Assembly: GCA_964480395.1 (NCBI GenBank)
Contig: CAYZQB010000007.1
Coordinates: 1-37,370 of the forward strand
Direction: 5' to 3'
Length of the DNA: 37,370 bases
Source of the DNA: an uncultured Planctomycetia bacterium
GTDB lineage: Bacteria > Planctomycetota > UBA8742 > SKZP01 > CAYZQB01
Under the pieces are notes generated by a model. That model made no database searches, had not been told where the DNA came from, and saw only the letters and a program-made list of their open reading frames with translations. Numbering within the stretch: the stretch's first letter is position 1; each line of letters starts with the position of its first letter. The position numbers and the translations under genes were made by a program. Shown one piece after another: positions 2,183-37,370 of this stretch.

Positions 2183-2257
2183 AAGACAGGATTTTTCCAT
2201 ATTCAATAGCCATATACGTTTTTGGATTCATTTATCTGCGCGTAAAAAAGCAGAAAG

Positions 2258-2298
2258 TCGACATCGTCAATAGGTCAAATTGTATTTGTGTCCATTTT
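2258..2298 (+). promoter_or_regulatory. Copy 1 of conserved bipartite element (TCGACATC-gt-CAATAGGTC-N13-GTCCATTTT), upstream of the ABC ATPase gene
   Basis: The exact 11-mer GTCAATAGGTC at 2266-2276 is identical to 21566-21576 and 28534-28544. GTCC follows after the same 13-nt spacer as in the copies at 21566 and 5705. The TCGACATC-NN prefix is shared with the copy upstream of the sigma gene. Confidence 0.5.
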
Positions 2299-2410
2299 TA
2301 GATGATGTAAAAAAAAGGTGGAAAGTGCGCAAATTTTCTTAGAATTATCAGGATTTTTGATATAAAGTGTCCTGCTTACAAAGATTTATAATCAATTTGA
2401 AAGGGATGAG

Positions 2411-5054: not shown

Positions 5055-5654
5055 TCAGTTAACACTATTAATCTGATTTTTGAGTATTTCACGTAGCTTA
5101 TGTTCAGCATGCATCATGCGTGTTTTAACTGTACCCAGAGGAATCTCAAGGATTTTTGCAATATCTGCATATTTCAAATCCTGAAAATGCGCCAGCACGA
5201 AAACCATGCGATGTTTTTCATCAAGTTTTTTAACTGCTGATCGAATAATTTCAACAGTCTCATCACGAGAAATCTTATCCTCAACAGATTCATCATCCGC
5301 CTCAAACTGATATTCTGAATTTGTATCGTCGAAACCATTATTTCCGTTTAGCGACACTTCTTTCCTCTTTTTCTTTTTCAAATACTCGTTAATAAACTCA
5401 TTTTTACCAATCTGAAAAAGATATGTACTGAATTTCCCTTTTGGAAAATAATTATCAACACTTTTCCAGAGTTTCAGAAAAGTCTGCTGAGCCAAGTCCT
5501 CAGCAAGTTCTGAATCCGCACCCATTTTGCGAAAAAAGTTAAATATAGGTTTCTGATATTTCAATACAATTGCTTCAAACGCTTGCATGTCGCCGACCTG
5601 CACGCGCAGCATGTGTTTTATATCCTCTCTTGTTGATTCATCTTTATCAAACAT
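5055..5654 (-). CDS. RNA polymerase sigma-70 family factor, ECF-type
   Basis: About 200 aa with sigma region 2 (DLAQQTFLKLWKSVDNY) and a region 4 HTH (YADIAKILEIPLGTVKTRMMHAEHKLRE). An acidic linker separates them. No obvious anti-sigma gene lies downstream. Confidence 0.85.
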   Translation of the reverse strand: MFDKDESTREDIKHMLRVQVGDMQAFEAIVLKYQKPIFNFFRKMGADSELAEDLAQQTFLKLWKSVDNYFPKGKFSTYLFQIGKNEFINEYLKKKKRKEVSLNGNNGFDDTNSEYQFEADDESVEDKISRDETVEIIRSAVKKLDEKHRMVFVLAHFQDLKYADIAKILEIPLGTVKTRMMHAEHKLREILKNQINSVN

Positions 5655-5704
5655 GATTGCACCAGTTCTTTACAGTTATATCTGCTTTTCATCTACAACG
5701 CTGG

Positions 5705-5745
5705 CAGTAGGACTCAAGTGTTACATGTCCTATTGTAGATGTCGA
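5705..5745 (-). promoter_or_regulatory. Copy of the bipartite element, read on the minus strand as TCGACATC-ta-CAATAGGAC-N13-GTCCTACTG, about 50 nt upstream of the sigma factor start
   Basis: The plus strand shows CAGTAGGAC (5705-5713), a 13-nt spacer, GTCCTATTG (5727-5735), then ta and GATGTCGA (5738-5745). This is a near-perfect 9-bp inverted repeat with the same spacing as copies 1 and 2. Confidence 0.5.
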
Positions 5746-5838
5746 AAAGAAAAGCAGAAAATCTGCCAATGAAAGTAATCATAGCAAAAGCACTATGAAA
5801 GATTAATAAATAATAAATTGATTAGAGATACCGCTTTA

Positions 5839-21349: not shown

Positions 21350-21565
21350 TTTTTCTCCGTGTTTGTATTCATGATATTTTAACGTATTATTCAAGCAAAA
21401 ATTCACCTAATTATTAATACTATAAAATTGAAACAATGTTTATTAATCAGTTCGCATTATTTAATACAAATTACGTTGATTAAATGCGAAAAAACCTTTG
21501 AAATTACGATGATTTGAAGGTATAAGTCTCCTTTCTTGTATCAGAGATGCATTTTATGCAATATG

Positions 21566-21598
21566 GTCAATAGGTCGAAGAACTCTTGAGTCCTGTTG
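21566..21598 (+). promoter_or_regulatory. Copy 2 of the bipartite element (GTCAATAGGTC-N13-GTCCTGTTG), 57 nt upstream of the EF-G paralog start
   Basis: Exact 11-mer at 21566-21576 and GTCCTGTTG at 21590-21598. The segment CTTGAGTCCT is shared with the sigma-gene copy. Confidence 0.5.
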
Positions 21599-21654
21599 AG
21601 GATAATGAGAGAAGAGCCTAAAATACTGTGGATTTTGGTAATACGGAGGTCATA

Positions 21655-23757
21655 ATGTCGATTCAGGATTTGAGGAATGTCGCATTTGTTGGACATGGTA
21701 ACTCAGGAAAAACTGCAACTGTGGAAGGATTGCTCTACACTGCGAAAGCTATTTCACGTTGGGGAAGAAGTGATGACAAGACTTCAATACTCGATTATCT
21801 TGATGACGAAAAAGATAAAGCTTATTCTATAAATCTTAAGATCGGTCGCCTGAAGCACAACAAGGTTGACATAAATGTAATTGATACTCCTGGCAAGCCG
21901 GATTTCCTTGGTGAAGCGGTTTCAGCATTGTATGCGTGCGATACAGCGGTTATTACAATCGCAGCTAATGCGGGTATTCAGGTTAATACTCGAAATGCTT
22001 GGAAAATCTCGGAAAAAGCTAATGTTGCAAAGGCAATTCTCATTACAAAAACCGATGCTGAAAACATCAGAGTCGAGGATGTGATTAAGCAGATTCAGAA
22101 TACCTTTGGCGACAAGTGCATCCCAATAACGTACCCAATCGGTGAAAGTGTGGATATGGTGGATGTAATCGATGTAATCAATCTACCTGAAAACGCGCCT
22201 GATGCTGCTGTGTCCTACAGAGAAACACTTGTTGAGAGATCAGTTGAAGCAGACGATGAAATAATGGAAAAATTCCTTGAAGAAATGGAAATCGATGAAG
22301 CAACTTTCAACAAGGTTTTGAAAAAAGCAATCACAATGGGTGTTGTTGTTCCGATTCTTTTTGTCGGAATGACAAAAGAAAAAGGTTATGACATTCTGCT
22401 TGATAAAATTGTCGAGCTTTTTCCGTCACCAGCAGATAATCTAGCGAAATTCAGCATATATCCTCTAGAACCAATGAAAGAATATATTAAAGCCAACGAA
22501 CTGGATATATTCAGCACTGTCATCACTGAAAAAACTGACATTCAAAAGCCAGAGCCAGAAACTATCGAATCTGCTGATGGTGATTTCCTTGCACAGGTCT
22601 TCAAATCAACAATTGACCCACAAACCGGAATACGAAACAGTTTTATCAGAGTTGTTCGCGGTGAAATGACAAGTGATGGTGCAATATACAACTGTTCAAC
22701 CGAAAAAATTGAAAAAGTAACGGGTTTCCTACATATCAGCGGTAAAGATACAAAAAGAATTGATAAAGCTGTTGCAGGCGATATTGTGGTTATCTCAAAA
22801 ATGGATTCCTTACATACTTGCACAACGATAACCGGTACGAACCATAAGATGCTGGAAGGATTTCCCTTTCCTCTTCCAACTGCTTCATTTGCTGTTCATC
22901 CGAAAACTCAAAAAGACGTTGATAAAGTCGGTGAAGCAATATCAAGAATTCGCGCGGAAGACCCAACTTTCGTTGACAGGATAGATCCAGTTACAAAAGA
23001 GCGAGTTATTGTCGGTCTCACTGACCTTCACTTGAATATTATGCTTGACCGCATGAAAAAACGCTCAAAAGTTGAAGTCGAGACAAGCTTACCCATAATT
23101 CCGTATAAAGAAACTATAACCGGTAAAGCTGCTGACAGCTATCGGCATAAGAAGCAGTCGGGTGGTGCTGGCGAATTCGGCGAGGTTCATATAGAAATCA
23201 GTCCGAGTGAACGTGGTGCCGGCTTTGAGTTCGAAAACGCAATTTTCGGTGGTTCAATTGACAGAGTTTTCATTCCTTCAGTTGAAAAAGGATTGAAAGA
23301 TCAGATGGCAAAAGGAGTTATTGTCGGTTTTCCTGTTGTTGATGTTCATGCACGACTATATGACGGGAAGACACATCCTGTTGACAGCAAGGACAGGGCA
23401 TTTCAGGTTGCTGCTCGCGAATGCTTCAAGAAGATTTTTCCGCATGCAAAACCAAAGCTTCTAGAGCCATATATGGAAATGGAAGTTCATATTCCAACTG
23501 AAAAAGTCGGCGACATTCTTGCGGACATCTCCGGTGCTCGCAGAGGGCGCGTTAACGATCAGATTACTGATGGTGATTTTGCAACAATTATGGCAGTTGC
23601 ACCACTTTCGGAGATTCAAACTTACAGCCAGAGTCTTCAGTCGATGACAGGCGGTGAAGGAACATTTACGATGAAATTTAGCAACTATGAAATAGTGCCT
23701 GAGAATATAACACAACAGATAATTGCAAAATATGCAAAAAAAGTTGAAGAAAAATAA
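21655..23757 (+). CDS. Elongation factor G paralog (EF-G-like translational GTPase)
   Basis: G1 is GHGNSGKT, G3 is DTPGKPDF and G4 is TKTD. The domain IV tip context is YDGKTHPVDSKDRAFQVAA. About 700 aa. Start ATG 21655 has GGAGG 5 nt upstream; the ORF is open from GTG 21628. Confidence 0.88.
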   Translation: MSIQDLRNVAFVGHGNSGKTATVEGLLYTAKAISRWGRSDDKTSILDYLDDEKDKAYSINLKIGRLKHNKVDINVIDTPGKPDFLGEAVSALYACDTAVITIAANAGIQVNTRNAWKISEKANVAKAILITKTDAENIRVEDVIKQIQNTFGDKCIPITYPIGESVDMVDVIDVINLPENAPDAAVSYRETLVERSVEADDEIMEKFLEEMEIDEATFNKVLKKAITMGVVVPILFVGMTKEKGYDILLDKIVELFPSPADNLAKFSIYPLEPMKEYIKANELDIFSTVITEKTDIQKPEPETIESADGDFLAQVFKSTIDPQTGIRNSFIRVVRGEMTSDGAIYNCSTEKIEKVTGFLHISGKDTKRIDKAVAGDIVVISKMDSLHTCTTITGTNHKMLEGFPFPLPTASFAVHPKTQKDVDKVGEAISRIRAEDPTFVDRIDPVTKERVIVGLTDLHLNIMLDRMKKRSKVEVETSLPIIPYKETITGKAADSYRHKKQSGGAGEFGEVHIEISPSERGAGFEFENAIFGGSIDRVFIPSVEKGLKDQMAKGVIVGFPVVDVHARLYDGKTHPVDSKDRAFQVAARECFKKIFPHAKPKLLEPYMEMEVHIPTEKVGDILADISGARRGRVNDQITDGDFATIMAVAPLSEIQTYSQSLQSMTGGEGTFTMKFSNYEIVPENITQQIIAKYAKKVEEK

Positions 23758-23861
23758 CAAGCGTGAAAGTTTTTAGCGATATTATTAAAAGAAATTGAAT
23801 GAATAAAACATTTTGGTTATCTTGCTAATAACAAATCAAGAATGCTGATTGGACATAAAGC

Positions 23862-25910
23862 ATGGATAAAAAATTATTACAATTTATGACAGCAATTACG
23901 CTACGGAGAATCAGTCAGCTCAAGTATCGCAGTGTGATAAATGCACCAGATACAAATGATAATAATATAATCAGTATTTACGAAATAGCCGGTGAATTAT
24001 GTGAGGATTTTAAGGATGTTATCCTGCAGGAAGCACGGGAACTCGCTCAAACCAGTGCTGAAGACAAAAATCTTTCACCTGAAAAAATTGCTTTGATGCT
24101 CGCTGAGGCAATTCCACTTTATGCTGGCTACAACGACATAAAGGATAATTTTCCTGACAATTCGGAGATTACTAGAAAAGTACTGAGTATCAAAGTCGGT
24201 CATCCTGCTGATAAATCCGACTATTATTTCGCAATCATTCGGGATAATGCGAATAAAGACCCATTTGTACCCGTCGAAGAACGTATGTTGACGAAGCCAC
24301 TTGAATCAGATCTGAGTGATTTGTACGAGAAAGTTTATATTGATGCGAAAGCATTGATAAATCAGCTTAATATTTCGAATTTTAATCAAATTTTGACTCA
24401 ACTCATAGAAATGCTTATGCCAATTCCGATTAACTCCGGAACTGATACTTTTCTCTCGATGGGGAGTTATTTCCGTGCTGTTCTAATTATCGGTTGCTCG
24501 ATTTTAAACGAGATAAAATCGCATGGACCCGGAGTGATGCAATCCGATGAAAGTAATTTATGGGCGTTAACCAAGATTGAAATCGTAAAACTTGGCATTA
24601 ATGGAAACTTGCCGGGTAGTATTATAGAAGAATCCAGGGAATTTCAGGTTTTAAGGAAAGAATTATTCGATGCGATGAAAACAGATACCCTGATTATTGA
24701 AAACCACGAACTTAAATCAACACTACCGAATCATATCTACCTGCTTCACAATAAATCTTTTAGTGAAGAATTGACTCGGAAAATTAAACCTGCAGTAACA
24801 CATTGGTTTGCTCAAAATCGTGCTGCTACATGCGTTGCAAGCGTAGAATTAAACAAAAATGACCTTTCTGATACTAAAAAATTTGAAGAATGCCTGAAAA
24901 AAGTGGATTTGAAAGCACATCATGAAATTGTGCACAAAATTGCCTTAAATTCTTTTTCTCAACCCGTGAAAGAAAAATCTAATGCGGAAAATCTTAAGAA
25001 AACGAGTAAAATTAACCCGCCAGAACTTGTTCAAAAAGCAGCATCAGAAAGCAGAATACCGATCATGGGTATGCTTCTAATTAAACAGGAAACTCAGCCG
25101 GAGTTAATCATTAACCGTGGTGCTGGTTTGCCTTCAATTCTTTTCGCAAATGACAGATTCACTCATTTCTGGGAAAAAATTGTTCCTGATATCGCTGGGA
25201 AATACCGTTTTTCAACAAGTATGATACATCTTGAAAAGGGTGATGTATTAATTAAGAATAAATTGTCGAGACTTCTAAGTTTCACAAGGGAATTTTTCAA
25301 TCTATATTATGATTTTGGAATGCCTGTGAGCATCAGCGCAAGCATCACAATGAATCAAGAAGGAGATGATGGCAAGAACCTGTCAATGACACATCAAGGT
25401 TATGTGGATGCAAAAAACGCAGTTCGCCCAAAAATTAGGACAGATAACCAAAATATCAATCCTTTCAGCGGTTTCAAGGGCAGCATGCTTTCTCTTTGTT
25501 TATTTGAGAATACGTCAAAAAACACAATTCCGAGTGAAGACCTGAAAATATTCTTCGAAATGATGCGTCAAATTGGATTACTTGCGGGTTATAGAGTCAA
25601 TAATGAAGATATTGTCCCACTTTCTAGTCAGACCAAACCTGAAATATTCAATATAGTACACTCAATTACGAATAAAATAAAGAATGATAAAGGTTTCAAC
25701 TGGCAATCAGTTTTGTATTATATGCTAACAGAGAAATTTAGTGATGAAGCTGATGCAAAAACTATAAATCTCAACGAACAAGCTGTAAACGACCTTTTAC
25801 ATACCTTAAGATATAATCGATGGCAGAACATTCAAAGACTGATGTCAAAACCTGCTCATCTTTATCTGAATATTTTGGCAAAATGGTTGAAAGTATTAGA
25901 ATTAACTTAA
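23862..25910 (+). CDS. Large hypothetical protein in the Cas10 (type III large subunit) position; possibly a highly degenerate Cas10 lacking HD, zinc-finger and GGDD motifs
   Basis: It lies immediately 5' of a csm2-csm3-csm4-csm5-like series, with its stop 18 nt before the next start. Length is 682 aa. The only Cas10-like trace I see is MIHLEKGDVLI (aa 454-464) followed about 30 aa later by PVSISASITM. This resembles the Palm2 pattern hhY-GGDD-hhh ... T-h-S-A-G-h with GGDD degraded to EKGD. There is no N-terminal HD and no CxxC pairs. The C-terminal ~130 aa look helical. Confidence 0.4.
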   Translation: MDKKLLQFMTAITLRRISQLKYRSVINAPDTNDNNIISIYEIAGELCEDFKDVILQEARELAQTSAEDKNLSPEKIALMLAEAIPLYAGYNDIKDNFPDNSEITRKVLSIKVGHPADKSDYYFAIIRDNANKDPFVPVEERMLTKPLESDLSDLYEKVYIDAKALINQLNISNFNQILTQLIEMLMPIPINSGTDTFLSMGSYFRAVLIIGCSILNEIKSHGPGVMQSDESNLWALTKIEIVKLGINGNLPGSIIEESREFQVLRKELFDAMKTDTLIIENHELKSTLPNHIYLLHNKSFSEELTRKIKPAVTHWFAQNRAATCVASVELNKNDLSDTKKFEECLKKVDLKAHHEIVHKIALNSFSQPVKEKSNAENLKKTSKINPPELVQKAASESRIPIMGMLLIKQETQPELIINRGAGLPSILFANDRFTHFWEKIVPDIAGKYRFSTSMIHLEKGDVLIKNKLSRLLSFTREFFNLYYDFGMPVSISASITMNQEGDDGKNLSMTHQGYVDAKNAVRPKIRTDNQNINPFSGFKGSMLSLCLFENTSKNTIPSEDLKIFFEMMRQIGLLAGYRVNNEDIVPLSSQTKPEIFNIVHSITNKIKNDKGFNWQSVLYYMLTEKFSDEADAKTINLNEQAVNDLLHTLRYNRWQNIQRLMSKPAHLYLNILAKWLKVLELT

Positions 25911-25927
25911 CGAAACAAGGAGTATAT

Positions 25928-26854
25928 ATGTTTGCAGAAGAAATTAACGAAGATATGAAGGAAAGAAAAGATACTTCAGCTGAGGAGATAAAAGAAGAAC
26001 CTGAAACTATTGACGAAAATAAACCTGTAAAATCAGCGAAAAATACTGAAACTAATGCTGAAGACAAAGTTGAAGCATTAAATGATAAAGCTGATGCTGA
26101 TGTTGTTAAGGACGAAAAGCATGATGAAAAACCTGTTGACAACTCAAAATCAGTAAAATCAGAAAAAATTACTAAGGATAAAAAGGATAAATTACTAGTT
26201 GAGACAGAGATACAAAAAGAATTACAGGATATTAAAACCTCGAAAACTCAAAAGGATTCTATTAAAATTAAGGATTCTGCTCAGGAAGAATCTAAAGAAT
26301 CGATCCTTACTAAAAAGGAAATTAAACTTGATGAACCGCGTAAAAGCAAGACGGAATCAGGTAGGTTCGAGAAAAGAATAAGTGAGCGAAAAAGAATAGA
26401 CAGACGCGGACTTCGTCAGGGAATCAGACGTGAAGAATATCGTAATAAAAGCTATGATGCACTTCCTGCACGAGATCAGAACATTAAAGAGATAATAAGC
26501 TCTGGAAATCCCGATTTAATCAACAGAACCGCTGAAGATTACGCAAAAACATGGGGTGACAGACCACCGTGGATTAAAAACCGTTTTTCTTCATTCCAGA
26601 TACGACCGATTATTTCAAAAATCTTGAAAATCAGAAAAAAAACCTTCGCATACGAAAACGTAAACGAGCTGAAACTTCTGAAACCATTGTTAGCATATAT
26701 TGCACGCAGGTATCACGACGACGATCTTTATGAATTTTCGCGAATAATAAGATATGCGATTGATGATGTCGGAGACGACCCGCAAAAGTTCAAATATTTT
26801 TGCTCGTTCTTTGATTCTCTGCTTCTGTATTTCAGGGCTAACGGTGGTAAATAA
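25928..26854 (+). CDS. csm2: Csm2-type Cas11 small subunit with a ~180-aa Lys/Glu/Asp-rich N-terminal extension
   Basis: The C-terminal ~125 aa carry Csm2 family hallmarks as I recall them: SSFQIRPIISKILKI, ELKLLKPLLAYIARR and KFKYFCSFFDSLLLYFRANG. Start 25928 is preceded by AAGGAG (25917-25922). The N-terminal part is low-complexity charged sequence ending in an Arg-rich patch (RFEKRISERKRIDRRGLRQGIRREEYR). Confidence 0.75.
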   Translation: MFAEEINEDMKERKDTSAEEIKEEPETIDENKPVKSAKNTETNAEDKVEALNDKADADVVKDEKHDEKPVDNSKSVKSEKITKDKKDKLLVETEIQKELQDIKTSKTQKDSIKIKDSAQEESKESILTKKEIKLDEPRKSKTESGRFEKRISERKRIDRRGLRQGIRREEYRNKSYDALPARDQNIKEIISSGNPDLINRTAEDYAKTWGDRPPWIKNRFSSFQIRPIISKILKIRKKTFAYENVNELKLLKPLLAYIARRYHDDDLYEFSRIIRYAIDDVGDDPQKFKYFCSFFDSLLLYFRANGGK

Positions 26855-26885
26855 CATTAAATCCAAAACATAAGTGAGATTGATT

Positions 26886-27644
26886 ATGCAATTAGACAAA
26901 CGAATTTTCCTAAAAGGTTACATTATTGCTGAAACAGGTTTGTTAATCGGTGGAACTGACACAGGACAAGGACTGAGCGGAGCAGACAAGGTTGTTTTAC
27001 GCAATCCTATCGATGAAAGACCGTTTATCCCTGGTTCGTCCATAAAAGGCAAAATGAGAATGCTATTGGATCAGCTTGCTGGGATTTATTCTGAAACCGA
27101 TGAGAAAAAAACTGCCAGTGAGATTCACAAAAAGATCGCACGATTGCTTGGAAAAATCAGCGATGATAGAGCAGAAAGTCCCAGAATGCTTATTATCCGG
27201 GATGCTAATCTTGTGAACCACAAGTATCTTGAAGCACAAGAGCATCTTGATCTGCCTTACACTGAACTAAAAACCGAAGTTTCAATCGATAGAATCACCG
27301 CGAAAGCCACGCCACATTGCTATGAAAGAGTGCCTTCAGGAGCAGTATTTTGTTTCGAGATGATTTTAAGCACTTACGATTTCGGCAAATCCAAGGACGA
27401 TGCAAAACAATATGTCGAGTTGATATTAACTGCATTATTGCTTCTGCAGGACGATTATCTGGGAGCAAACGGCTCGCGCGGTTACGGTAAAGTAAGATTT
27501 CACGTGAATGATATAAAAATGCGCGACAAAGAAGGTTATATCAAGAATGCTGAGCCAATTGATTTCACTGAAGTCAACGTACCAGCTGAGCTGAAACTCG
27601 AACAACCGGTTCTTGATGAAATTAATTCGCAGATTTCTAAGTAA
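26886..27644 (+). CDS. csm3: Csm3-family RAMP (Cas7 backbone subunit)
   Basis: The N-terminal stretch is GLLIGGTDTGQGLSGADKVVLRNPIDERPFIPGSSIKGKMRMLL, which holds the G-rich loop, the catalytic-Asp context and the IPGSS-KG-R motif. The C-terminal motif is LGANGSRGYGKVRF. Confidence 0.88.
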   Translation: MQLDKRIFLKGYIIAETGLLIGGTDTGQGLSGADKVVLRNPIDERPFIPGSSIKGKMRMLLDQLAGIYSETDEKKTASEIHKKIARLLGKISDDRAESPRMLIIRDANLVNHKYLEAQEHLDLPYTELKTEVSIDRITAKATPHCYERVPSGAVFCFEMILSTYDFGKSKDDAKQYVELILTALLLLQDDYLGANGSRGYGKVRFHVNDIKMRDKEGYIKNAEPIDFTEVNVPAELKLEQPVLDEINSQISK

Positions 27645-27662
27645 AAACAATGAGGTTGACCG

Positions 27663-28517
27663 GTGAGTGATTACGATTTTATCGAATATAAATTGAGTTT
27701 TAAACAATCATTAAATCTGCCAATTTCTTCGTCAAACGAGATTTATCCTGTCTTATATTCCGACTGGTTGTATAAAGTGTTTGAAAGCGGATGGAAAAGA
27801 TTGTTTAGTGAGGATTTTCCGTACAATGACATCCGAATCACTTCCGGATTTCCATACTGCAAGGATTATTCACATGTTCTTTTCTATATACCGGAAAAAT
27901 TAGAATATTTGTCCGTTGCACGTGATGCACTTGCTGCTGGTGAGATTATACTTGGCTCAAATTGCTGGCGTTTTTTCTCGCGCCCTAGGGCAGAATTCAA
28001 CAAAGATACTGCACGCAGGGAAAAACGCTTTACAACAGTTGAAATATATTTCAAGAAAAATTCTGGAATCTGGTTTGGGTCGCGATTTACTAACTCGACA
28101 AGTCAGAAGAAATTCGAGAGTGTAATTCGGTTTATCGGTGATGAGGGCATCGGCGGCGGTCGTTCAGTAGGTTATGGCGGGTTTGTGCTTTCAAGCATCG
28201 AGGAAATATCAGTTTACAAAGAGGAACACTCTCTAATGCTTTCACTTTCACGCTTCAAAATACCCGAATCTTCAATTTCAGAAGACCTTTTTTGCGAAAT
28301 ACGACCGATGACAATTGGATTGAAATCTACAAAAACTGGAAAAAAGATTAATTTCTTGGTATTTGGCGAAGGCTCACTTATGAATGTGAGTGATAAAGTT
28401 GATTATTTATATGCTGGTGAATTTATCGGAGAAGACAGCAAAAAAGCAAAAGATTACTCGAATCGTGCAGCATTGCTTTTTGCTATGCCAGTACCAGCGA
28501 AATTGCAGACTTACTGA
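27663..28517 (+). CDS. csm4: Csm4-family RAMP (Cas5-like subunit)
   Basis: N-terminal YKLSFKQSLNLP...VLYSDWLYKVFESGW matches the Csm4 pattern (beta-strand, then sD-T-L-F-S-A-L-like helix). The C-terminal glycine-rich loop is IGDEGIGGGRSVGYGGF. GTG start has GAGG 8 nt upstream. Confidence 0.75.
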   Translation: MSDYDFIEYKLSFKQSLNLPISSSNEIYPVLYSDWLYKVFESGWKRLFSEDFPYNDIRITSGFPYCKDYSHVLFYIPEKLEYLSVARDALAAGEIILGSNCWRFFSRPRAEFNKDTARREKRFTTVEIYFKKNSGIWFGSRFTNSTSQKKFESVIRFIGDEGIGGGRSVGYGGFVLSSIEEISVYKEEHSLMLSLSRFKIPESSISEDLFCEIRPMTIGLKSTKTGKKINFLVFGEGSLMNVSDKVDYLYAGEFIGEDSKKAKDYSNRAALLFAMPVPAKLQTY

Positions 28518-28533
28518 CATTCTTTTCATGTTT

Positions 28534-28564
28534 GTCAATAGGTCAATCGATTTTGTTCCTATTG
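28534..28564 (+). promoter_or_regulatory. Copy 3 of the bipartite element (GTCAATAGGTC-N10-GTTCCTATTG) inside the csm4-csm5 intergenic gap
   Basis: Exact 11-mer at 28534-28544. CAATAGG (28536-28542) and CCTATTG (28558-28564) are perfect 7-bp inverted repeats. The spacer is 2 nt shorter than in the other copies. The element ends 60 nt upstream of the csm5 ATG. Confidence 0.5.
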
Positions 28565-28623
28565 CTTTGTTGAGGGAAAAAACAGGTTGCCGATGCAGAA
28601 TTTAGATTAATTAAGGTAATGTT

Positions 28624-29820
28624 ATGTTTACATATACAAAGAAATTGAAAAGTATAATCGAAGCGGAAGTTGAGGTACTAACACCTTTGCATATCAGCAG
28701 CGGGAAGAGTTTTCAACCTTCTGATGTTGTGCGTGATCCAGAATCATTTTTTGTTATTAACGAACGAAAACTTATTGAGAAATTTGCCGATAACGATGAA
28801 GTATTGAAAGAGCTTGAGAATCCACGCCTGATTTTGCAAAGATTCTTCGAAGAGCATGAAGATTTGTATGTTGATGATTATATGCTTTACGAACTTGAAG
28901 CACGGACGCAGAAAACAGTGCGTTATGGCATGCCATTAAACAGTTTCGCTCGCATAGGAGCTGAGTTTACGCCCTACATTCCTGGCTCATCTCTGAAAGG
29001 AGCTCTTCTTTCAGGTATTTTGTGGGATTTGAACCAGATAGCAAGAGGAGATAGCGAGAAATGGACCAGCGATATTTTTGTGTCTGCTCTTAAGAGGTGT
29101 TTTCATCACGGTAATGACATAAATATTTACGATAATGAATTTATAAGTGCAATTTTAGGTAAAGATAGCACAAATTTTGCTCAAAAAGCGTTCCGTATTC
29201 TGGATGCTAGTTTGAAACCTGAAGATATTGGTGTTTTCGCAAATGCAATGTTTCATTGTGATAAACCAAACGGCAGCGGATATCATTGGAGTGGAATTCA
29301 GAAACTGCCAACGAATGATTTTACGAAGATAAGCTATGAATTAATTGAAGCAATAAAGCCTGGAACAAAATTCAATGTTAAGATAGTTGTTGACAATGTT
29401 GCTCTTAAAAATGTTAAATTCGGGGAATTAAGCTCGAAACTTAGGCATGGTAAATCCTACGAATTTGGTGATATTGCAAGTGCCATATTCGAGTTAGCTT
29501 ATAACACTCTTTATTATGAAAAAGAATTTTATAGCAAGACAGGTCATCGAAAACTTATTAATGCATCAGAAGATTTTTATAATTATGCAAACTCAATTGC
29601 AGAAGATCCGGAAAGCAACGAGATTATGCTCCGTCTTGGATGGGGTATGAACTATCACGGAGTGACTGGTTTTTTATGGCAGGACGATATTGTGAAAAAA
29701 CTGAGATTACCTATGCAAAATTATCATGAATATCCTTACCCGAAAAGCAGGCGGATTGTATTTGATGGTCAGAACGAAGTAGGTACACCAGGCTGGGTTA
29801 AAATGCGCATCAATTTTTAA
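28624..29820 (+). CDS. csm5: Csm5-family RAMP (Cas7-like capping subunit)
   Basis: VEVLTPLHISSGKSFQPSDVV near the N-terminus, YIPGSSLKGALLSG, and RLGWGMNYHGVTG near the C-terminus; 398 aa. Confidence 0.8.
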   Translation: MFTYTKKLKSIIEAEVEVLTPLHISSGKSFQPSDVVRDPESFFVINERKLIEKFADNDEVLKELENPRLILQRFFEEHEDLYVDDYMLYELEARTQKTVRYGMPLNSFARIGAEFTPYIPGSSLKGALLSGILWDLNQIARGDSEKWTSDIFVSALKRCFHHGNDINIYDNEFISAILGKDSTNFAQKAFRILDASLKPEDIGVFANAMFHCDKPNGSGYHWSGIQKLPTNDFTKISYELIEAIKPGTKFNVKIVVDNVALKNVKFGELSSKLRHGKSYEFGDIASAIFELAYNTLYYEKEFYSKTGHRKLINASEDFYNYANSIAEDPESNEIMLRLGWGMNYHGVTGFLWQDDIVKKLRLPMQNYHEYPYPKSRRIVFDGQNEVGTPGWVKMRINF

Positions 29821-29859: not shown

Positions 29860-30513
29860 TTACAATGTGTTGACAATTGACTGTATTTTAATGGAAACAG
29901 CGTCAATTCCACCTTCGCTTTTTACATTTTTGACAATGTCGAATTTTGCGTAAAAACCTAGAACCGGCTCAGTTTGTTTTTTGTAGTTTTCAAGTCTAAC
30001 CAAAATTGTTTCGGGTTTGTCGTCATCACGTAAGATAACATTATCGCCACATTTATCGCATACACCTTCAACCTTCGGTGGTGAAATATCAAGATTGTAC
30101 GTTGCGCCACATTTAAGACAAACTCTGCGCGTTCCAAGTCGTTTCACAATTTCTTCATCATCAACCATTAGATTAATTACACCATTAATTTTTTTATCCA
30201 ATTTTTGCATCGCTTCATGTAATTTTCCCGCTTGTATCACCGTACGTGGAAAACCATCAAGAATAAAACCGTTTACAAGGTCAGGTTGCTTTAATTTGTC
30301 TTCAACTATGCTTATCACGAGGTCATCAGGCACAAGTGCGCCTTTATCCATGTATTCCTTTGCTTTCATACCAAGCGGAGTTTCATTTTTGATATTTGCT
30401 CGAAAAATATCACCTGTGGAAACCTGTACAATATTTGCATGTTTCGCAAGAATTTGTGCTTGTGTACCTTTGCCGACTCCGGGAGGTCCGAAAATAATGA
30501 GATTTAATGCCAT
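29860..30513 (-). CDS. adk: Adenylate kinase (long form with 4-Cys zinc lid)
   Basis: IIFGPPGVGKGTQAQ P-loop, STGDIFR, GFILDGFPRT, and lid CLKCGATYN...CDKCG. Confidence 0.97.
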   Translation of the reverse strand: MALNLIIFGPPGVGKGTQAQILAKHANIVQVSTGDIFRANIKNETPLGMKAKEYMDKGALVPDDLVISIVEDKLKQPDLVNGFILDGFPRTVIQAGKLHEAMQKLDKKINGVINLMVDDEEIVKRLGTRRVCLKCGATYNLDISPPKVEGVCDKCGDNVILRDDDKPETILVRLENYKKQTEPVLGFYAKFDIVKNVKSEGGIDAVSIKIQSIVNTL

Positions 30514-30590
30514 GATATTCCCCTAAAATGATTAAGTAGTAGAATCATATTTGAAGCTCAATATAGCAAATATCAATGATGAGAGCATAA

Positions 30591-31754
30591 TCATTTTTTC
30601 AGAGTTTCGTAAATTGCAACGTATGAGTCATGTCGTCGAGCATCAATAATACCTGCTTCAAGAGCATCAACTATTTTGCATCCTGGTTCAACACCTGTGT
30701 GCGAACAGTTGTTAAAACGGCATTTACCGATGTAAGGCATCATTTCTGGATAGTATGCAATTAAATCAGCTTTCAGAAGCGCATGCATCCCAAATGAACG
30801 AATCCCTGGAGTATCGACAACAGAACCACCGAAATCCAGCAAATGCATTTGAACTGAAGTTGTTGTATGTTTTCCTTTACCGGTTTTTTTACTAACTTCG
30901 TTGATTTTAATTCCTAGACCGGGTTGAATCGCATTAAGCAGACTCGATTTTCCGACACCAGACTGTCCGGTAAGTACAGAATTCTTGTCCTTTAGGATAT
31001 GCCTGAAATTTTCAATTCCCTTTGCATTTTTTACACTTAATAGCAGAACTTTATAACCAAGTTTACCGTAAAATTCAGCAATTTCCTGTGGTTCATTATT
31101 CTCAGAAGTTAGGTCGATTTTGTTGATGCAGATGACACAATCGATATTGCTGCGTTCCGCCGTTATCACAACACGGTCAATAAAACGAATTTTAAATGGC
31201 GGCTCTGCTGCTGCTACAACTACTACAAGCTGGTCAATATTGGCTGCAATCACTTGCTCTTGCTCGCTCTTAAAATGTGCAGCACGCGATAAAAGCGATT
31301 TACGCTCTTTGATTCCAATAAGAATACATTGTTTTTCTTGTGTAACGTGCTTAATAAGCTCAACTGCAACAACATCGCCAACTGCTACCGGATGCTTAAA
31401 TTTTCTTTCACCTATGAGCAGTCTTCGCGGTAAAAAACATATTAACGCGTCATTTCCAGAAAAAGCTTTGAAATGCCGACGATGTACAGAAGTAACGGTA
31501 CCTTTCAAAGTGTTATCGGGAAATTCGTCCTCAGATTTGTAAAATTCAACCGGTCTGTCGGACTCAGCATGTTCAAGCTCTTTTGCGAACTCTGTTACAA
31601 GTCTTTCCTCTTCGTCGTTTAACTCATCCTCTTCTTCGTCAATTACTGCATCTTCATTATCAGCATTGTTTTCATACGCCGCAATTTCGTTTTTCCGCCT
31701 GCTGCGAGCGGATTTACTGCGCCCTTTTCGTCCCGGATTTCGTTGTGCTGGCAT
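30591..31754 (-). CDS. rsgA: Ribosome small-subunit-dependent GTPase A (RsgA/YjeQ) with ~85-aa charged N-terminal extension
   Basis: Circularly permuted GTPase order NKID (G4), GQSGVGKSSLLNAI (G1), DTPG (G3). C-terminal zinc knuckle CRFNNCSHTGVEPGC. Confidence 0.92.
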   Translation of the reverse strand: MPAQRNPGRKGRSKSARSRRKNEIAAYENNADNEDAVIDEEEDELNDEEERLVTEFAKELEHAESDRPVEFYKSEDEFPDNTLKGTVTSVHRRHFKAFSGNDALICFLPRRLLIGERKFKHPVAVGDVVAVELIKHVTQEKQCILIGIKERKSLLSRAAHFKSEQEQVIAANIDQLVVVVAAAEPPFKIRFIDRVVITAERSNIDCVICINKIDLTSENNEPQEIAEFYGKLGYKVLLLSVKNAKGIENFRHILKDKNSVLTGQSGVGKSSLLNAIQPGLGIKINEVSKKTGKGKHTTTSVQMHLLDFGGSVVDTPGIRSFGMHALLKADLIAYYPEMMPYIGKCRFNNCSHTGVEPGCKIVDALEAGIIDARRHDSYVAIYETLKK

Positions 31755-31838
31755 TTAGTCCTTATTATTTAACATAAGTTATTTTACGAAACTTTCTTGC
31801 AGAATGAAAAATGGAAATTATAATTATCGCTCAATTCA

Positions 31839-31917
31839 CGGGGCGTAGCGCAGTCTGGTTTAGCGCGTCTGAATGGGGTTCAGAAGGTCGAAGGTTCGAA
31901 TCCTTTCGCCCCGACCA
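31839..31917 (+). tRNA. tRNA-Pro (anticodon GGG), CCA encoded
   Basis: Manual cloverleaf. The acceptor CGGGGCG pairs with CGCCCCG, giving the C1:G72 pair plus A73 typical of bacterial tRNA-Pro. The D stem is GCGC/GCGC. The anticodon stem is TCTGA/TCAGA with loop A-T-GGG-G-T. The T arm is GAAGG-TTCGAAT-CCTTT. Confidence 0.9.
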
Positions 31918-31927
31918 CAAAACACAA

Positions 31928-31960
31928 CAACTCAAGAGTTTTTCCTCTTGAGTTGTTTTT
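31928..31960 (+). terminator. Rho-independent terminator after tRNA-Pro
   Basis: CAACTCAAGAG (31928-31938) pairs with CTCTTGAGTTG (31945-31955), an 11-bp stem with a 6-nt loop, followed by T5. Confidence 0.88.
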
Positions 31961-32176
31961 ATTGGTTACAACCTGAATTACAACCCGTTGGAACGGATTT
32001 GAATCATTCTAAAATGAAAGATGCAGCAATTTCAATGCTTGCAGCGCGCACCATCTCGCAGCTTCTTGATATACAATGAAATAAGATTAACTAAGTGTGT
32101 ATATGTATAGATATGATGTACTAAAAAAGTACATTGTGATTTAGGAACAGTTTTACGTCAGAAATATTTACATTTT

Positions 32177-32233
32177 ACAGAAATAACAGAAATAACAGAA
32201 ATTATCGAGAATAACAGAATTAATAGAAATAAA
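32177..32233. repeat. 9-bp tandem repeat (ACAGAAATA: two perfect copies, a third with one mismatch, about three degenerate) in an AT-rich 520-bp intergenic region
   Basis: The sequence reads acagaaata acagaaata acagaaatt atcgagaat aacagaatt aatagaaat. Confidence 0.8.
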
Positions 32234-32484
32234 CGTACAAAGAAGGTTTGAAGACAGTAATATATACAGTTCAATAATAATGAGTTAGCCAAATACTGAA
32301 TTCAAGCTAATTATGTGCGATTGGATTTGCTATAAATATGAAATATTGAAAATATTAATCAAAAATCTTGAACTTTTTTCTGAAAAGCAGGTTTATCACA
32401 TATGTAACAATTCGATTTAAATATTATCTCATTATTTTTTATATTTCAGATATATTGTGATTTTGTTATTGAAATATAATTGGT

Positions 32485-37300: not shown

Positions 37301-37370
37301 TCTTGGCAAATGAGCAGGGACAACGAGAAATCAAGGAAGACGTTGTTCGCAGCGTAGAAAAAATTCCTTT
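34327..37370 (+). CDS. Alpha-2-macroglobulin family protein (MG-domain) with signal peptide and TPR-like N-terminal region, 3'-partial; absent from the supplied ORF track
   Basis: I translated frame 1 codon by codon from ATG 34327 to the window end and found no stop. The signal peptide is SWLLASMFILLLSFISLNFIFA. MG-domain hallmarks are FTVTDRPIYRPKQTIHFSSILR and HYFSVEEYRKPEFAVSI, followed by AKIAGNYYFGAPVANGEVKYKV. Confidence 0.8.
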   Translation, partial: MAALKSFITRRKSWLLASMFILLLSFISLNFIFAEDDSQDLFEKAEKFFNEKSFAKALANFNEALTNSGADFTKRQLTRLRIAQCQHQLNKYNEMLKSYDELIKDYPSTPLTVEVLTEFADNLIRLPHYYYKKDDQISWGKWISGGYYNYVRESNIKKAEKNILAAKDLQIKHLLDSTAELNADTRWHWRERLADLHLKEAGIYEVYENYQRNQWNYTWENRSFWERINPADPDGPKEISQSRKIPSGEGWQKIENRTFHVYKQADTIIEAYNQAYIRYFSLYKDYKKILDAEYAKDKENKTAIEIAENRVVGYLERSGEAHYRIASYLARGLDATPEYLQLVYGEINWQKYNVLPKCDEFVEAYPKHFRAPEILLLKANQQYINQDFVNAVSTLDVLIKSYADTPWAKTAKTQKDEILRPRLDVNASLNGITGQEINLSARIRNIKSLKVEIYKFDLAHYIEKSLYLTSYDMRLNSVSTLLDKITDKDEYDYRYTQPMVKDLDGFKDYLTFISTKNHKTKDISKYRYHNESIASGLTENGFYLVRISGENMFGANFVQISTKTLVSRAFSDRRQYYLADRETGMPIMGKNELIIKEYRYKPHTNYVKVFRSKLHEEEGNGWHEYRDLPPKHSIQNLTAIAKCEDGDVIMHTNQYGQYWWNMAFRDSEIKGFTVTDRPIYRPKQTIHFSSILRSRKSGSYGFAAPKKGSAIWLTMWDSKGTKLIDQRYELDEFGQIHGQYTLGEEPALGSYSIYMRWDAGEYSRFNSSSHYFSVEEYRKPEFAVSIGTDQNRMKVGSLVKAKIAGNYYFGAPVANGEVKYKVFRKEYVHKYRFPGAFEWLYSYVGMWHHRLSDHYTRNAGWQRELVTEGSGRLDENGNFEISFNAGPEILLRGPEDPAVKQLLTNDSDLKRFFEKDYAYEITADVTDSARRLISGSGSIKVTRQSFSMFSNYRNNFYRPKSKVEIELRSLTPSGIAISVEGGLHIEEVKRYFLANEQGQREIKEDVVRSVEKIP

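What the first reader, a model, noticed from the sequence alone, without database searches (positions are those of the whole stretch)
21566..29820. EF-G paralog and the Csm-like block form one apparent transcription unit in a translation-related neighbourhood
Seen:
- The EF-G paralog ends at 23757 and the Cas10-slot gene starts at 23862 on the same strand.
- I see no hairpin/T-tract terminator in the 104-nt gap.
- The shared element at 21566 precedes the whole 8-kb run.
- The block is followed by convergent adk and rsgA and then tRNA-Pro.

Inference: co-expression of a ribosome-binding GTPase paralog with an RNA-targeting Csm-like complex hints at a functional link. Examples would be action on translating mRNA, ribosome-associated surveillance or a stress-induced translation response. 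This is speculative, and adjacency alone could be coincidental.
Basis: inference. Interest (0 to 1): 0.7.

Follow-up and report, generated by a model that had tools for sequence, protein, structure and literature searches.

The report
Array-less Csm module beside EF-G paralog
A rare, stripped-down type III-A CRISPR effector gene set with no CRISPR array in 37 kb sits directly after a spare elongation-factor-G gene in a narrow group of Planctomycetota; the two may be co-transcribed, but the available evidence is explained by a single insertion rather than a working partnership with translation.

Summary
An EF-G gene (21655-23757) is followed after 104 nt, on the same strand and with no terminator, by five genes. 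These are an orphan 682-aa protein in the Cas10 slot, then Csm2, Csm3, Csm4 and Csm5. Convergent adk, rsgA and tRNA-Pro follow.

The EF-G belongs to the EFG II paralog subfamily and lacks the catalytic histidine. The Cas10-slot protein has no HD or GGDD motif and matches no profile, and only a weak fold match points to Cas10. The window holds no CRISPR array, cas6, cas1/2 or CARF gene.

The "shared element" is real. It is a ~55-70-nt promoter-like motif with four co-oriented intergenic copies, lying before EF-G, csm5, an ABC ATPase gene and an ECF sigma gene.

The proposed EF-G/Csm functional link is weakly supported:
- Adjacency is seen only in one narrow clade, where EF-G is 91-92% identical.
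- The nearest other EF-G orthologs (52-54% identical) lack the block.
- A 36%-identical Csm5 relative stands alone, with no EF-G nearby.

Best reading: a lineage-specific, selection-maintained type III-A derivative inserted next to EFG II.

One lead remains open. An outgroup relative encodes, right after EF-G, the same N-terminal domain fused to a tRNA-binding domain.

The parts
21555..21623 (+). Promoter/operator-like repeated element upstream of EF-G. Core GTCAATAGGTC at 21566-21576, second box CTTGAGTCC.
   Evidence: Exact 11-mer present three times. 72-nt alignment A6. Model R1 scores 52.1 bits. 76% identical over 55 nt to L017 228-282. No consensus RNA structure.
21655..23757 (+). EF-G paralog of the EFG II subfamily, 700 aa. 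All five EF-G domains present. G3 motif is DTPGK, so the catalytic His is absent.
   Evidence: Pfam GTP_EFTU, EF-G_D2, EFG_III, EFG_IV and EFG_C. NF009381 scores 694 bits, above its 583 cutoff; TIGR00484 scores 478, below its 659 cutoff. Motifs GHGNSGKT, KAYSI, DTPGK and TKTD match the EFG II hallmarks in PMC3150367.
23758..23861 (+). 104-nt gap between EF-G and the Cas10-slot gene. No terminator, no significant structure, no element copy.
23862..25910 (+). Cas10-slot protein, 682 aa. An orphan family, probably an extremely diverged Cas10 without HD or GGDD. Its N-terminal ~112 aa are shared with P0137.
   Evidence: No Pfam, NCBIfam, PADLOC or PDB sequence hit. Only five family members found in exhaustive searches. 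hhalign against a genuine Cas10 gives probability 0.06. Low-confidence AF2 model (pLDDT 41) whose top Foldseek PDB hits are Cas10/Csm1 chains, best E 2.7e-4. dN/dS 0.125. No 'HD' or 'GGDD' string anywhere.
25928..26854 (+). Csm2 (Cas11)-like small subunit, 308 aa from ATG 25928 (SD AAGGAG). A ~215-aa highly charged N-terminal extension precedes a ~90-aa Csm2 domain.
   Evidence: PF03750 at 46.7 bits and TIGR01870 at 38.9 bits, on the C-terminal 90 aa. Start and composition: 48% charged residues. The extension is conserved in L001, L002 and L018.
26886..27644 (+). Csm3 (Cas7) backbone subunit with the catalytic Asp retained.
   Evidence: TIGR02582 scores 177 bits, above its cutoff of 90. Aligns to S. 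thermophilus Csm3 (6ifn_F, E 1e-32), with GADKVV opposite the D33 motif AIDSPV.
27663..28517 (+). Csm4 (Cas5) subunit.
   Evidence: TIGR01903 scores 62.5 bits, above its cutoff of 55. PADLOC Csm4 at 9e-18.
28523..28591 (+). Second in-run copy of the promoter-like element, inside a lineage-specific 106-nt spacer before csm5.
   Evidence: Model R1 scores 47.5 bits. The csm4-csm5 spacing is only 8 nt in relatives L011 and L016.
28624..29820 (+). Csm5 subunit.
   Evidence: TIGR01899 scores 65.8 bits, above its cutoff of 38.3. Family P0124-P0130.
29860..31917 (.). Downstream flank: adk (29860-30513, -), rsgA (30591-31754, -) and tRNA-Pro GGG (31839-31917, +). These mark the boundary of the block and are syntenic in relatives.
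   Evidence: In L011, adk is 82% and rsgA 80% identical.
5055..5748 (-). ECF sigma factor gene (5055-5654) with a diverged copy of the same element upstream (5748->5696).
   Evidence: TIGR02937 scores 108.7 bits. R1 hit at E 0.0017 with box 2 CTTGAGTCCT identical to the EF-G copy. A terminator-like hairpin lies just upstream at 5767-5753.
2256..2323 (+). Best-scoring copy of the element, 88-155 nt upstream of a fused OppD/OppF-type ABC ATPase gene (2411-4951).
   Evidence: R1 scores 55 bits. NCBIfam NF008453.

Best explanation
The 8-kb run joins two parts of different origin.

Part 1 is an EFG II-type EF-G paralog. This is a fast-evolving accessory translational GTPase, common in Planctomycetota, that lacks the catalytic histidine.

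Part 2 is a compact, reduced effector operon derived from type III-A (Csm) CRISPR-Cas:
- a very diverged large subunit without an HD nuclease or a GGDD cyclase site;
- a Cas11/Csm2 with a long charged N-terminal tail;
- a Csm3 that keeps its catalytic aspartate;
- Csm4 and Csm5.

The operon was inserted once between EFG II and adk in the ancestor of a narrow Planctomycetota clade, and purifying selection has kept it since.

Inferred mechanism. The proteins assemble on a guide RNA, most likely a crRNA supplied in trans from an array elsewhere in the genome, as proposed for the array-less III-G loci. They then bind complementary RNA and cut it with Csm3. There is no cyclic-oligoadenylate signalling and no DNase activity.

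The cas10-slot to csm4 genes are probably read through from the promoter-like element upstream of EF-G. In this lineage csm5 has gained its own copy of that element. The EF-G adjacency is best explained as an insertion site inherited within one clade, not as a partnership with the ribosome.
For: Shown:
- Csm2, Csm3, Csm4 and Csm5 all pass curated cutoffs.
- The Csm3 catalytic Asp is aligned and conserved.
- The large subunit has no HD or GGDD and matches no profile, yet its top structural matches are Cas10/Csm1 chains.
- The window has no CRISPR array, cas6, cas1/2, CARF gene or Rfam CRISPR-DR hit.
- Genes inside the block are spaced 17-31 nt apart.
- dN/dS is 0.06-0.13 for block genes, across near-saturated dS.
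- The family is restricted to a handful of metagenomic contigs whose EF-G is 91-92% identical.
- EF-G orthologs at 45-54% identity have no block.
- The 36%-identical Csm5 homolog has no EF-G nearby.
- The EF-G carries the EFG II hallmarks.
- Literature precedents exist for array-less type III variants, inactivated-Palm variants and a Cas10 undetectable by sequence (PMC12669027; PMC8730458).

Inferred: the trans crRNA supply, RNA cleavage, the single insertion event and read-through from the EF-G promoter.
Against: - Every block-bearing locus whose upstream side is visible has EF-G directly upstream on the same strand (L001, L002, L003/L004).
- There is no terminator in the gap.
- EF-G and csm5 share a cis element, which hints at co-regulation.
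- The L017 relative places an N-domain plus tRNA-binding protein right after EF-G, so the link between that N-domain and EF-G may predate the Csm insertion.
- No guide RNA source has been seen, so the 'crRNA in trans' step is untested.
- The Cas10 assignment rests on a model with pLDDT 41.
Confidence: 0.6

Rival explanations
1. EFG II and the Csm-like complex form one functional system that acts on translating mRNA, tRNA or ribosomes, for example as ribosome-associated RNA surveillance or a stress-induced translation response. They are co-expressed as one operon.
For: - Adjacency is conserved in all visible block-bearing loci.
- There is no terminator in the gap.
- The same promoter-like element lies upstream of EF-G, csm5 and an ECF sigma gene.
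- The large subunit's N-terminal 112 aa are 48% identical to a protein that sits right after EF-G in L017 and carries a tRNA_bind domain.
- The loss of Cas10 enzymatic motifs fits a non-canonical role.
Against: - The adjacency comes from one narrow clade (EF-G 91-92% identical, adk and rsgA syntenic too), so it counts as a single evolutionary event.
- EFG II orthologs elsewhere lack the block and the Cas10-slot family altogether.
- A solo Csm5 relative has no EF-G nearby.
- The 104-nt gap is variable in length and poorly conserved.
- In L017, EF-G is followed by two terminator-like hairpins before the next gene.
- L017 is a single 1.2-kb contig at 2.7x coverage.
Confidence: 0.15
2. An exapted, guide-independent or non-CRISPR-guided Csm derivative, comparable to HRAMP, ARAMP or the Streptomyces I-E derivative. 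On this view it serves a host regulatory or stress role under an ECF sigma regulon and has no crRNA from any array.
For: - There is no array, cas6 or adaptation gene in 37 kb.
- The neighbourhood is housekeeping, with uniform GC.
- There are no plasmid or phage relatives.
- The ECF-linked element precedes EF-G and csm5.
- A Csm5 relative stands alone in L010.
- Literature precedents exist.
Against: - All four RAMP/Cas11 subunits keep ordinary Csm profiles, and the catalytic Asp is retained.
- Many bona fide type III loci lack adjacent arrays (PMC12669027).
- The block proteins evolve fast, as defence genes do. The Cas10-slot protein is 49% identical where EF-G is 91%.
- The rest of the genome is unseen.
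Confidence: 0.2
3. A decaying remnant of a type III-A locus that has lost Cas10 function, the array and Cas6, and is now non-functional.
For: The HD and GGDD motifs are lost. No array, cas6 or ancillary genes lie nearby.
Against: - All five ORFs are intact in several lineages that are separated by saturated synonymous divergence.
- dN/dS is 0.06-0.13.
- The compact gene spacing is preserved.
Confidence: 0.05

Closest known systems
Type III-A (Csm) CRISPR-Cas effector module, e.g. S. thermophilus, S. epidermidis or L. lactis Csm
   Same: The gene order is the same: large subunit, csm2, csm3, csm4, csm5. Csm2 to Csm5 pass the III-A profiles. The Csm3 catalytic Asp is conserved. The large-subunit model's best structural matches are III-A Cas10 chains.
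   Different: The large subunit has no HD domain, no GGDD and no sequence similarity to Cas10, and it carries a novel N-terminal domain. Csm2 carries a ~215-aa charged extension. There is no array, Cas6, Csm6/CARF or cas1/2 within 37 kb. The block sits among housekeeping genes.
[quoted passage not shown] 2025, PMC12669027)
   Same: These show the same reductive evolution. The Palm/cyclase domain is inactivated or lost and cOA ancillary genes are gone. III-G has no array. The III-I Cas10 is undetectable by sequence and was recognised only by structure.
   Different: III-G and III-H keep an active HD and lack the Cas7 catalytic Asp, so they are predicted to target DNA. Here it is the reverse. 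III-I has a fused Cas7-11i, whereas here the Csm subunits are separate. The signature proteins (Csx26, and Cas11 fused to Cas10) are absent. Those lineages are Sulfolobales, other archaea, Thermodesulfobacteriota and Chloroflexota, not Planctomycetota.
Array-less CRISPR derivatives (HRAMP, ARAMP, the Streptomyces I-E derivative with a STAND NTPase; PMC8730458)
   Same: They are lineage-restricted Cas5/Cas7-containing modules without an array or adaptation genes, presumed to be exapted.
   Different: Their RAMPs have diverged beyond assignment to a subtype, and they are associated with nucleases or NTPases. Here the subunits are clearly Csm, and no nuclease partner is present.
EFG II subfamily of EF-G paralogs (Margus et al. 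2011, PMC3150367)
   Same: G1 reads GHxxxGKT. G2 RGITI is relaxed to xxxSx. Domains I-III evolve fast while domain IV is conserved, and the group is phylum-specific.
   Different: This subclade has Lys at the catalytic-His position (DTPGK), where most Planctomycetota homologs have Tyr. No association of EFG II with Cas genes was found in the paper searches run here.

Membership tests
Type III-A (Csm) CRISPR-Cas | Cas10/Csm1 large subunit with an HD nuclease and two Palm domains carrying GGDD | tested here: not met
   No Pfam, NCBIfam, PADLOC or PDB sequence hit. hhalign against a genuine Cas10 gives probability 0.06. No 'HD' or 'GGDD' string. The fold-level match to Cas10 is weak: E 2.7e-4 and TM 0.16, on a model with pLDDT 41.
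Type III-A (Csm) CRISPR-Cas | Csm2 (Cas11) small subunit | tested here: met
   PF03750 scores 46.7 bits (cutoff 24.8) and TIGR01870 scores 38.9 (cutoff 30.6). The match covers only the C-terminal 90 aa.
Type III-A (Csm) CRISPR-Cas | Csm3 (Cas7) with the catalytic Asp for target-RNA cleavage | tested here: met
   TIGR02582 scores 177 bits (cutoff 90). The Asp aligns with StCsm3 D33.
Type III-A (Csm) CRISPR-Cas | Csm4 (Cas5) and Csm5 subunits | tested here: met
   TIGR01903 scores 62.5 (cutoff 55) and TIGR01899 scores 65.8 (cutoff 38.3).
Type III-A (Csm) CRISPR-Cas | Associated CRISPR array and Cas6 for crRNA production | tested here: not met
   No array-like repeats in 37 kb. No Rfam CRISPR-DR hit. 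No Cas6 among the scanned ORFs. The rest of the genome is not available.
Type III-A (Csm) CRISPR-Cas | cOA signalling partner (Csm6 or another CARF/SAVED effector) | tested here: not met
   None among the window ORFs. This fits the absence of GGDD.
Subtype III-G / III-H | Inactivated Palm together with an active HD in Cas10, no Cas7 catalytic Asp, and Csx26 (III-G) or Cas11 fused to Cas10 (III-H) | tested here: not met
   There is no HD, the Cas7 Asp is present, and Csm2 is a separate gene. The criteria come from PMC12669027.
Subtype III-I | Cas7-11i fusion effector plus a Cas10 undetectable by sequence | tested here: not met
   Csm3, Csm4 and Csm5 are separate genes. Only the 'Cas10 undetectable by sequence' trait is shared.
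EFG II subfamily of EF-G | Five EF-G domains; G1 GHxxxGKT; G2 RGITI relaxed to xxxSx; G3 DxPG | tested here: met
   Pfam domains. Motifs GHGNSGKT, KAYSI and DTPGK. Criteria from PMC3150367.
EFG II subfamily of EF-G | Always accompanied by another EF-G (EFG I or the spdEFG pair) in the same genome | not testable with these tools
   Only this 37-kb contig is available, and it holds no second EF-G.
Single operon (EF-G through csm5) | Same strand, short intergenic distances, no internal terminator or promoter, adjacency conserved across divergent genomes, one transcript | tested here: inconclusive
   Same strand and no terminator. However, the EF-G gap is 104 nt, against 17-31 nt inside the block. 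A second promoter-like element precedes csm5. Adjacency is conserved only in a narrow clade. No transcript data are available.
ECF sigma-dependent promoter (for the repeated element) | A copy upstream of the cognate ECF sigma gene (autoregulation), and a -35 AAC / -10 CGT-type consensus at 16-17-nt spacing | tested here: inconclusive
   A diverged copy lies 42-94 nt upstream of the ECF sigma gene. The classic AAC/CGT boxes are not evident in the alignment. The ECF consensus is taken from general knowledge.

The most novel reading that the evidence does not exclude
The link to translation is real and older than the Csm insertion. On this reading, EFG II was ancestrally paired with a small protein made of a helical N-domain plus a tRNA-binding OB fold, as seen in L017.

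An incoming type III-A operon then fused its Cas10 to that N-domain. The window protein still shows a tRNA_bind-like 'KVLSIKVGHPADK..YYFAI' relic at residues 105-125.

The result would be a signalling-dead Csm complex, controlled with EFG II by an ECF-sigma-type promoter element, that is recruited to tRNA or ribosome-bound RNA. That would amount to a CRISPR effector repurposed for translation-coupled RNA surveillance.
Probability: 0.1. Interest if true: 0.85.

Novelty: new variant of a known kind. Interest (0 to 1): 0.48.

Why it matters
If confirmed, this would add a bacterial III-A-derived member to the recently recognised set of reduced type III systems (III-G, III-H, III-I). Its combination of traits is unusual: RNA cleavage retained, HD and cyclase both lost, a large subunit unrecognisable by sequence with a novel N-terminal domain, and a Cas11 with a long charged tail.

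A system like this would be a natural 'signalling-free' RNA-targeting Csm. It also bears on how CRISPR effectors get exapted. The possible tie to an EF-G paralog and a tRNA-binding domain would be very surprising if real, but present evidence does not establish it.

The repeated ECF-linked promoter-like element gives a concrete, testable handle on how the EFG II paralog is regulated. The function of EFG II paralogs remains unknown.

Tried and rejected
- Scans of genome contigs and metagenome contigs with the Cas10-slot alignment found nothing.
- The genome-contig scan with single-sequence Csm3 found nothing. That mode uses exact peptides and was a poor choice.
- The metagenome scan with the Csm5 alignment gave only two short contigs.
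- AF2 on the Cas10-slot protein gave pLDDT 36 with 3 sequences and 41 with 5, so the fold evidence is only suggestive.
- A profile search against PDB sequences gave only chance hits.
- I checked whether the window protein still contains a tRNA_bind domain. Pfam found nothing, even at E <= 10, and hhalign found no similarity beyond residue 113. Only a short motif resemblance remains.
- The repeated element is unlikely to be a structured RNA, riboswitch or crRNA-like gene. It has no consensus structure, no significant folding and no Rfam hit.
- The 75-nt tandem repeat at 33481-33810 is not a CRISPR array. It is a coding repeat inside an ORF, similar along its whole length.
- A plasmid or phage origin is not supported, because tblastn found no matches.
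- Simple sigma-70 promoter scans are at chance level and were not used.

Full report
**Layout**

The window is a whole 37,370-bp NCBI contig of a low-GC (~37%) Planctomycetota metagenome-assembled genome. On the + strand lie, in order:

| Feature | Coordinates | Note |
|---|---|---|
| EF-G | 21655-23757 | ATG with a GGAGG Shine-Dalgarno sequence; the GTG at 21628 is less likely |
| Gap | 23758-23861 | 104 nt |
| Cas10-slot ORF | 23862-25910 | 682 aa |
| Csm2-like gene | 25928-26854 | most likely start, with SD AAGGAG |
| csm3 | 26886-27644 | |
| csm4 | 27663-28517 | |
| Spacer | 28518-28623 | 106 nt |
| csm5 | 28624-29820 | |

Convergent adk and rsgA follow, then tRNA-Pro.

**The EF-G**

It has all five EF-G domains. 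It passes NCBIfam NF009381 but fails the canonical EF-G model TIGR00484.

Its G motifs are GHGNSGKT, KAYSI, DTPGK and TKTD. The trGTPase 'RGITI' motif is relaxed to xxxSx, and the catalytic His of DTPGH is replaced by Lys. All 120 best homologs, mostly annotated as Planctomycetota, also lack that His and mostly read DTPGY.

These are the hallmarks of the EFG II subfamily. That subfamily is described as fast-evolving, phylum-specific, of unknown function and always accompanied by another EF-G (PMC3150367). The domain IV loop (HKKQSGGAGEFG) is intact. 'EF-G paralog' is therefore right, although the second EF-G cannot be seen on this contig.

**The block**

Csm2, Csm3, Csm4 and Csm5 pass curated thresholds. 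Csm3 aligns to S. thermophilus Csm3 with the catalytic D33 position conserved.

The Csm2-like protein is about twice the normal size. A ~215-aa N-terminal region with 48% charged residues precedes the ~90-aa Csm2 domain. The extension is present in relatives.

The Cas10-slot protein is an orphan:
- It gives no hit in Pfam, NCBIfam, PADLOC or PDB sequences.
- It has three relatives among 5.8 billion clusters.
- An exhaustive profile search of 1.84 billion representatives found only the same family, and added two new members, P0136 and P0137.
- hhalign against a genuine Cas10 shows no similarity.
- It contains no 'HD' dipeptide and no GGDD.

AlphaFold2 models are poor (pLDDT 36 and 41). Even so, residues 402-497 adopt a beta-alpha-beta-beta-alpha-beta palm-like topology, with 'EKGD' at the hairpin where GGDD would sit. 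Foldseek of the model against 350,542 PDB chains returns Cas10/Csm1 chains of L. lactis, S. thermophilus, S. epidermidis and E. italicus, plus P. furiosus Cmr2, as top hits (best E 2.7e-4, TM ~0.16), followed by class III cyclases.

I read this as weak but non-trivial support for an extremely diverged, enzymatically dead Cas10. The III-I Cas10 was recognised only by structure in the same way (PMC12669027).

The gene is under purifying selection: dN/dS is 0.125 against the 76%-identical relative, and 0.06-0.08 for Csm3 and Csm4.

The window has no CRISPR array, cas6, cas1/2 or CARF gene, and no Rfam CRISPR-repeat hit. The right end is occupied by an ORF of more than 1,000 aa that runs off the contig. 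No relatives were found on plasmids or phages.

**Is the EF-G/Csm adjacency meaningful?**

In every block-bearing locus where the upstream side is visible, EF-G lies directly upstream on the same strand. These loci are L001 (Cas10-slot 76% identical), L002 (49%) and L003/L004 (identical).

However, the EF-G fragments in L001 and L002 are 92% and 91% identical to the window's. The next EF-G orthologs are only 58-65% identical over the same region. In the L002/L011 genome, adk (82%) and rsgA (80%) are syntenic as well. The loci therefore represent one narrow clade, and the adjacency counts as a single evolutionary event.

Outside the clade the association breaks down:
- The closest full-length EF-G orthologs have no Csm genes within 5-10 kb. 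These are P0005 and P0007 (52-54% identical, same DTPGK motif) and P0008 (45%).
- Since the Cas10-slot family was not found anywhere else, those genomes apparently lack it.
- The only distant Csm5 relative (P0130, 36%) is a solitary gene in a high-GC contig, with no other csm gene and no EF-G within 10 kb.

The block proteins also evolve much faster than their neighbours: the Cas10-slot protein is 49% identical where EF-G is 91%. That is typical of defence-derived genes.

**Operon structure**

The 104-nt gap has no terminator and no significant fold. In L001 and L002 the gap is 134 and 65 nt long and poorly conserved.

Intrinsic terminators are present at only some clear transcription-unit ends in this window, so their absence here is weak evidence. 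Spacings inside the block are 17-31 nt. Co-transcription from the EF-G promoter is the simplest reading for cas10-slot through csm4, but it is not shown.

**The shared element**

GTCAATAGGTC occurs exactly three times, at 2266, 21566 and 28534. Many 11-mers occur three times in this AT-rich window. Several facts together make this one real:
- All copies are intergenic and co-oriented with the downstream gene.
- The flanks align over ~70 nt, with a second box TTGnnTCC and an A-rich third box.
- Two copies occur in another genome, L017, and one of them is 76% identical over 55 nt to the EF-G copy.

A sequence-only model finds a fourth, diverged copy at 5748->5696 on the - strand (E 0.0017). Its box 2 is identical to the EF-G copy. 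It lies 42-94 nt upstream of an ECF sigma-factor gene and just after a terminator-like hairpin.

The element has no consensus RNA structure. I interpret it as a promoter/operator region. It may depend on the ECF sigma factor, because such factors typically autoregulate (general knowledge), but the classic ECF boxes are not evident.

Two consequences follow. First, EF-G and csm5 share a cis element, which hints at co-regulation. Second, the run is not a simple single unit, because csm5 has its own copy. That copy sits in a lineage-specific insertion: csm4 and csm5 are only 8 nt apart in L011 and L016.

**An unexpected lead**

P0137 (190 aa, locus L017) matches residues 4-112 of the Cas10-slot protein at 48% identity (BLASTP 9e-30; hhalign probability 99.6%). 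It then continues into a Pfam tRNA_bind domain (E 2.3e-17).

L017 begins with an EF-G C-terminus. Two terminator-like hairpins and two element copies follow, then P0137, and then an unrelated hydrophobic ORF rather than csm2. Its N-domain is about equally distant from all three Cas10-slot lineages, so L017 is an outgroup.

The window protein has 'RKVLSIKVGHPADKSDYYFAII' exactly where the homology ends. From memory, this resembles the start of tRNA_bind domains, but Pfam does not detect the domain there.

Two readings are possible:
- The ancestral state was EFG II followed by an N-domain/tRNA-binding protein, into which a type III-A operon inserted and fused.
- Alternatively, L017 is a deletion derivative or an assembly chimera. 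The contig is 1.2 kb at 2.7x coverage, and the OB fold lacks its first strand.

**Comparison with known systems**

By gene order and four of its five subunits, the block works like a type III-A Csm effector. It fails the Cas10 (HD, GGDD), array, Cas6 and cOA criteria.

[quoted passage not shown] It differs in keeping the Cas7 catalytic Asp while lacking HD, and in lacking their signature proteins.

Its RAMPs are much less diverged than those of HRAMP and ARAMP. Full-text searches found no paper linking EF-G paralogs to Csm systems.

**Verdict**

The observations are confirmed. The block is a rare new variant of a known kind. The EF-G partnership is an attractive but weakly supported inference, which I put at ~0.15, or ~0.10 for the stronger 'translation-coupled surveillance' form.

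Noticed in passing
window 2256-2323 (+), 5696-5748 (-), 21555-21623 (+), 28523-28591 (+); L017 125-157 and 224-292: A ~55-70-nt repeated intergenic element (GTCAATAGGTC, 9 nt, TTGnnTCC, then an A-rich box). It always points at the next gene: a fused OppD/F-type ABC ATPase, an ECF sigma factor, EFG II and csm5. In L017 it points at the N-domain/tRNA_bind gene. It is likely a promoter/operator of a small, possibly ECF-dependent, regulon.
   Followed up: partly
L017 355-927 (protein P0137): A 190-aa protein whose first ~119 aa are 48% identical to the N-terminus of the Cas10-slot protein, and whose C-terminus is a Pfam tRNA_bind domain (profile positions 15-95 of 96). It is encoded right after an EF-G gene on a 1.2-kb, 2.7x-coverage contig. 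It could be the ancestral state, a deletion fusion or a chimera.
   Followed up: partly
L010 10001-11182: A Csm5-like gene (36% identical, with strongly conserved motifs such as RLGWGxNxHGxTGxLW and GTPGW) stands alone in a high-GC contig. About 1 kb of uncalled sequence lies upstream, and no other csm gene or EF-G lies within 10 kb.
   Followed up: partly
window 21655-23757 and 120 homologs (P0004-P0123): The whole set of best EF-G homologs, mostly Planctomycetota, lacks the catalytic histidine of the G3 motif. Most read DTPGY, and the window's subclade reads DTPGK. This suggests altered or absent ribosome-stimulated GTP hydrolysis.
   Followed up: partly
window 25928-26572: The Csm2-like protein carries a ~215-aa N-terminal extension with 48% charged residues (K/R 23%, D/E 25%). 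It looks intrinsically disordered and is conserved in relatives L001, L002 and L018.
   Followed up: partly
window 33481-33810, inside ORF 32485-33969 (-): A 75-nt tandem repeat (3-4 copies, 70-90% identical) encodes a 25-aa protein repeat in a 494-aa protein with no family match. It is not a CRISPR array.
   Followed up: partly
window 31918-32484: A 560-nt AT-rich (GC ~28%) non-coding stretch after tRNA-Pro contains a 9-nt tandem repeat (ACAGAAATA x6, 32177-32232). It is preceded by a strong bidirectional terminator hairpin at 31926-31957.
   Followed up: no
window ~34327-37370 (+): An ORF of more than 1,000 aa runs off the right end of the contig, so the ORF tool does not list it. The apparent 3-kb 'ORF-free' region is therefore coding. 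The WD40 ORF at the left end likewise appears to run off the contig.
   Followed up: partly
L012 1-14041: An ordinary relative locus carries two tandem complete III-A effector sets (cas10-csm2-csm3-csm4-csm5, twice). A Card1-type CARF nuclease and cas1/cas2 follow. I used it here only as a source of a genuine Cas10.
   Followed up: no
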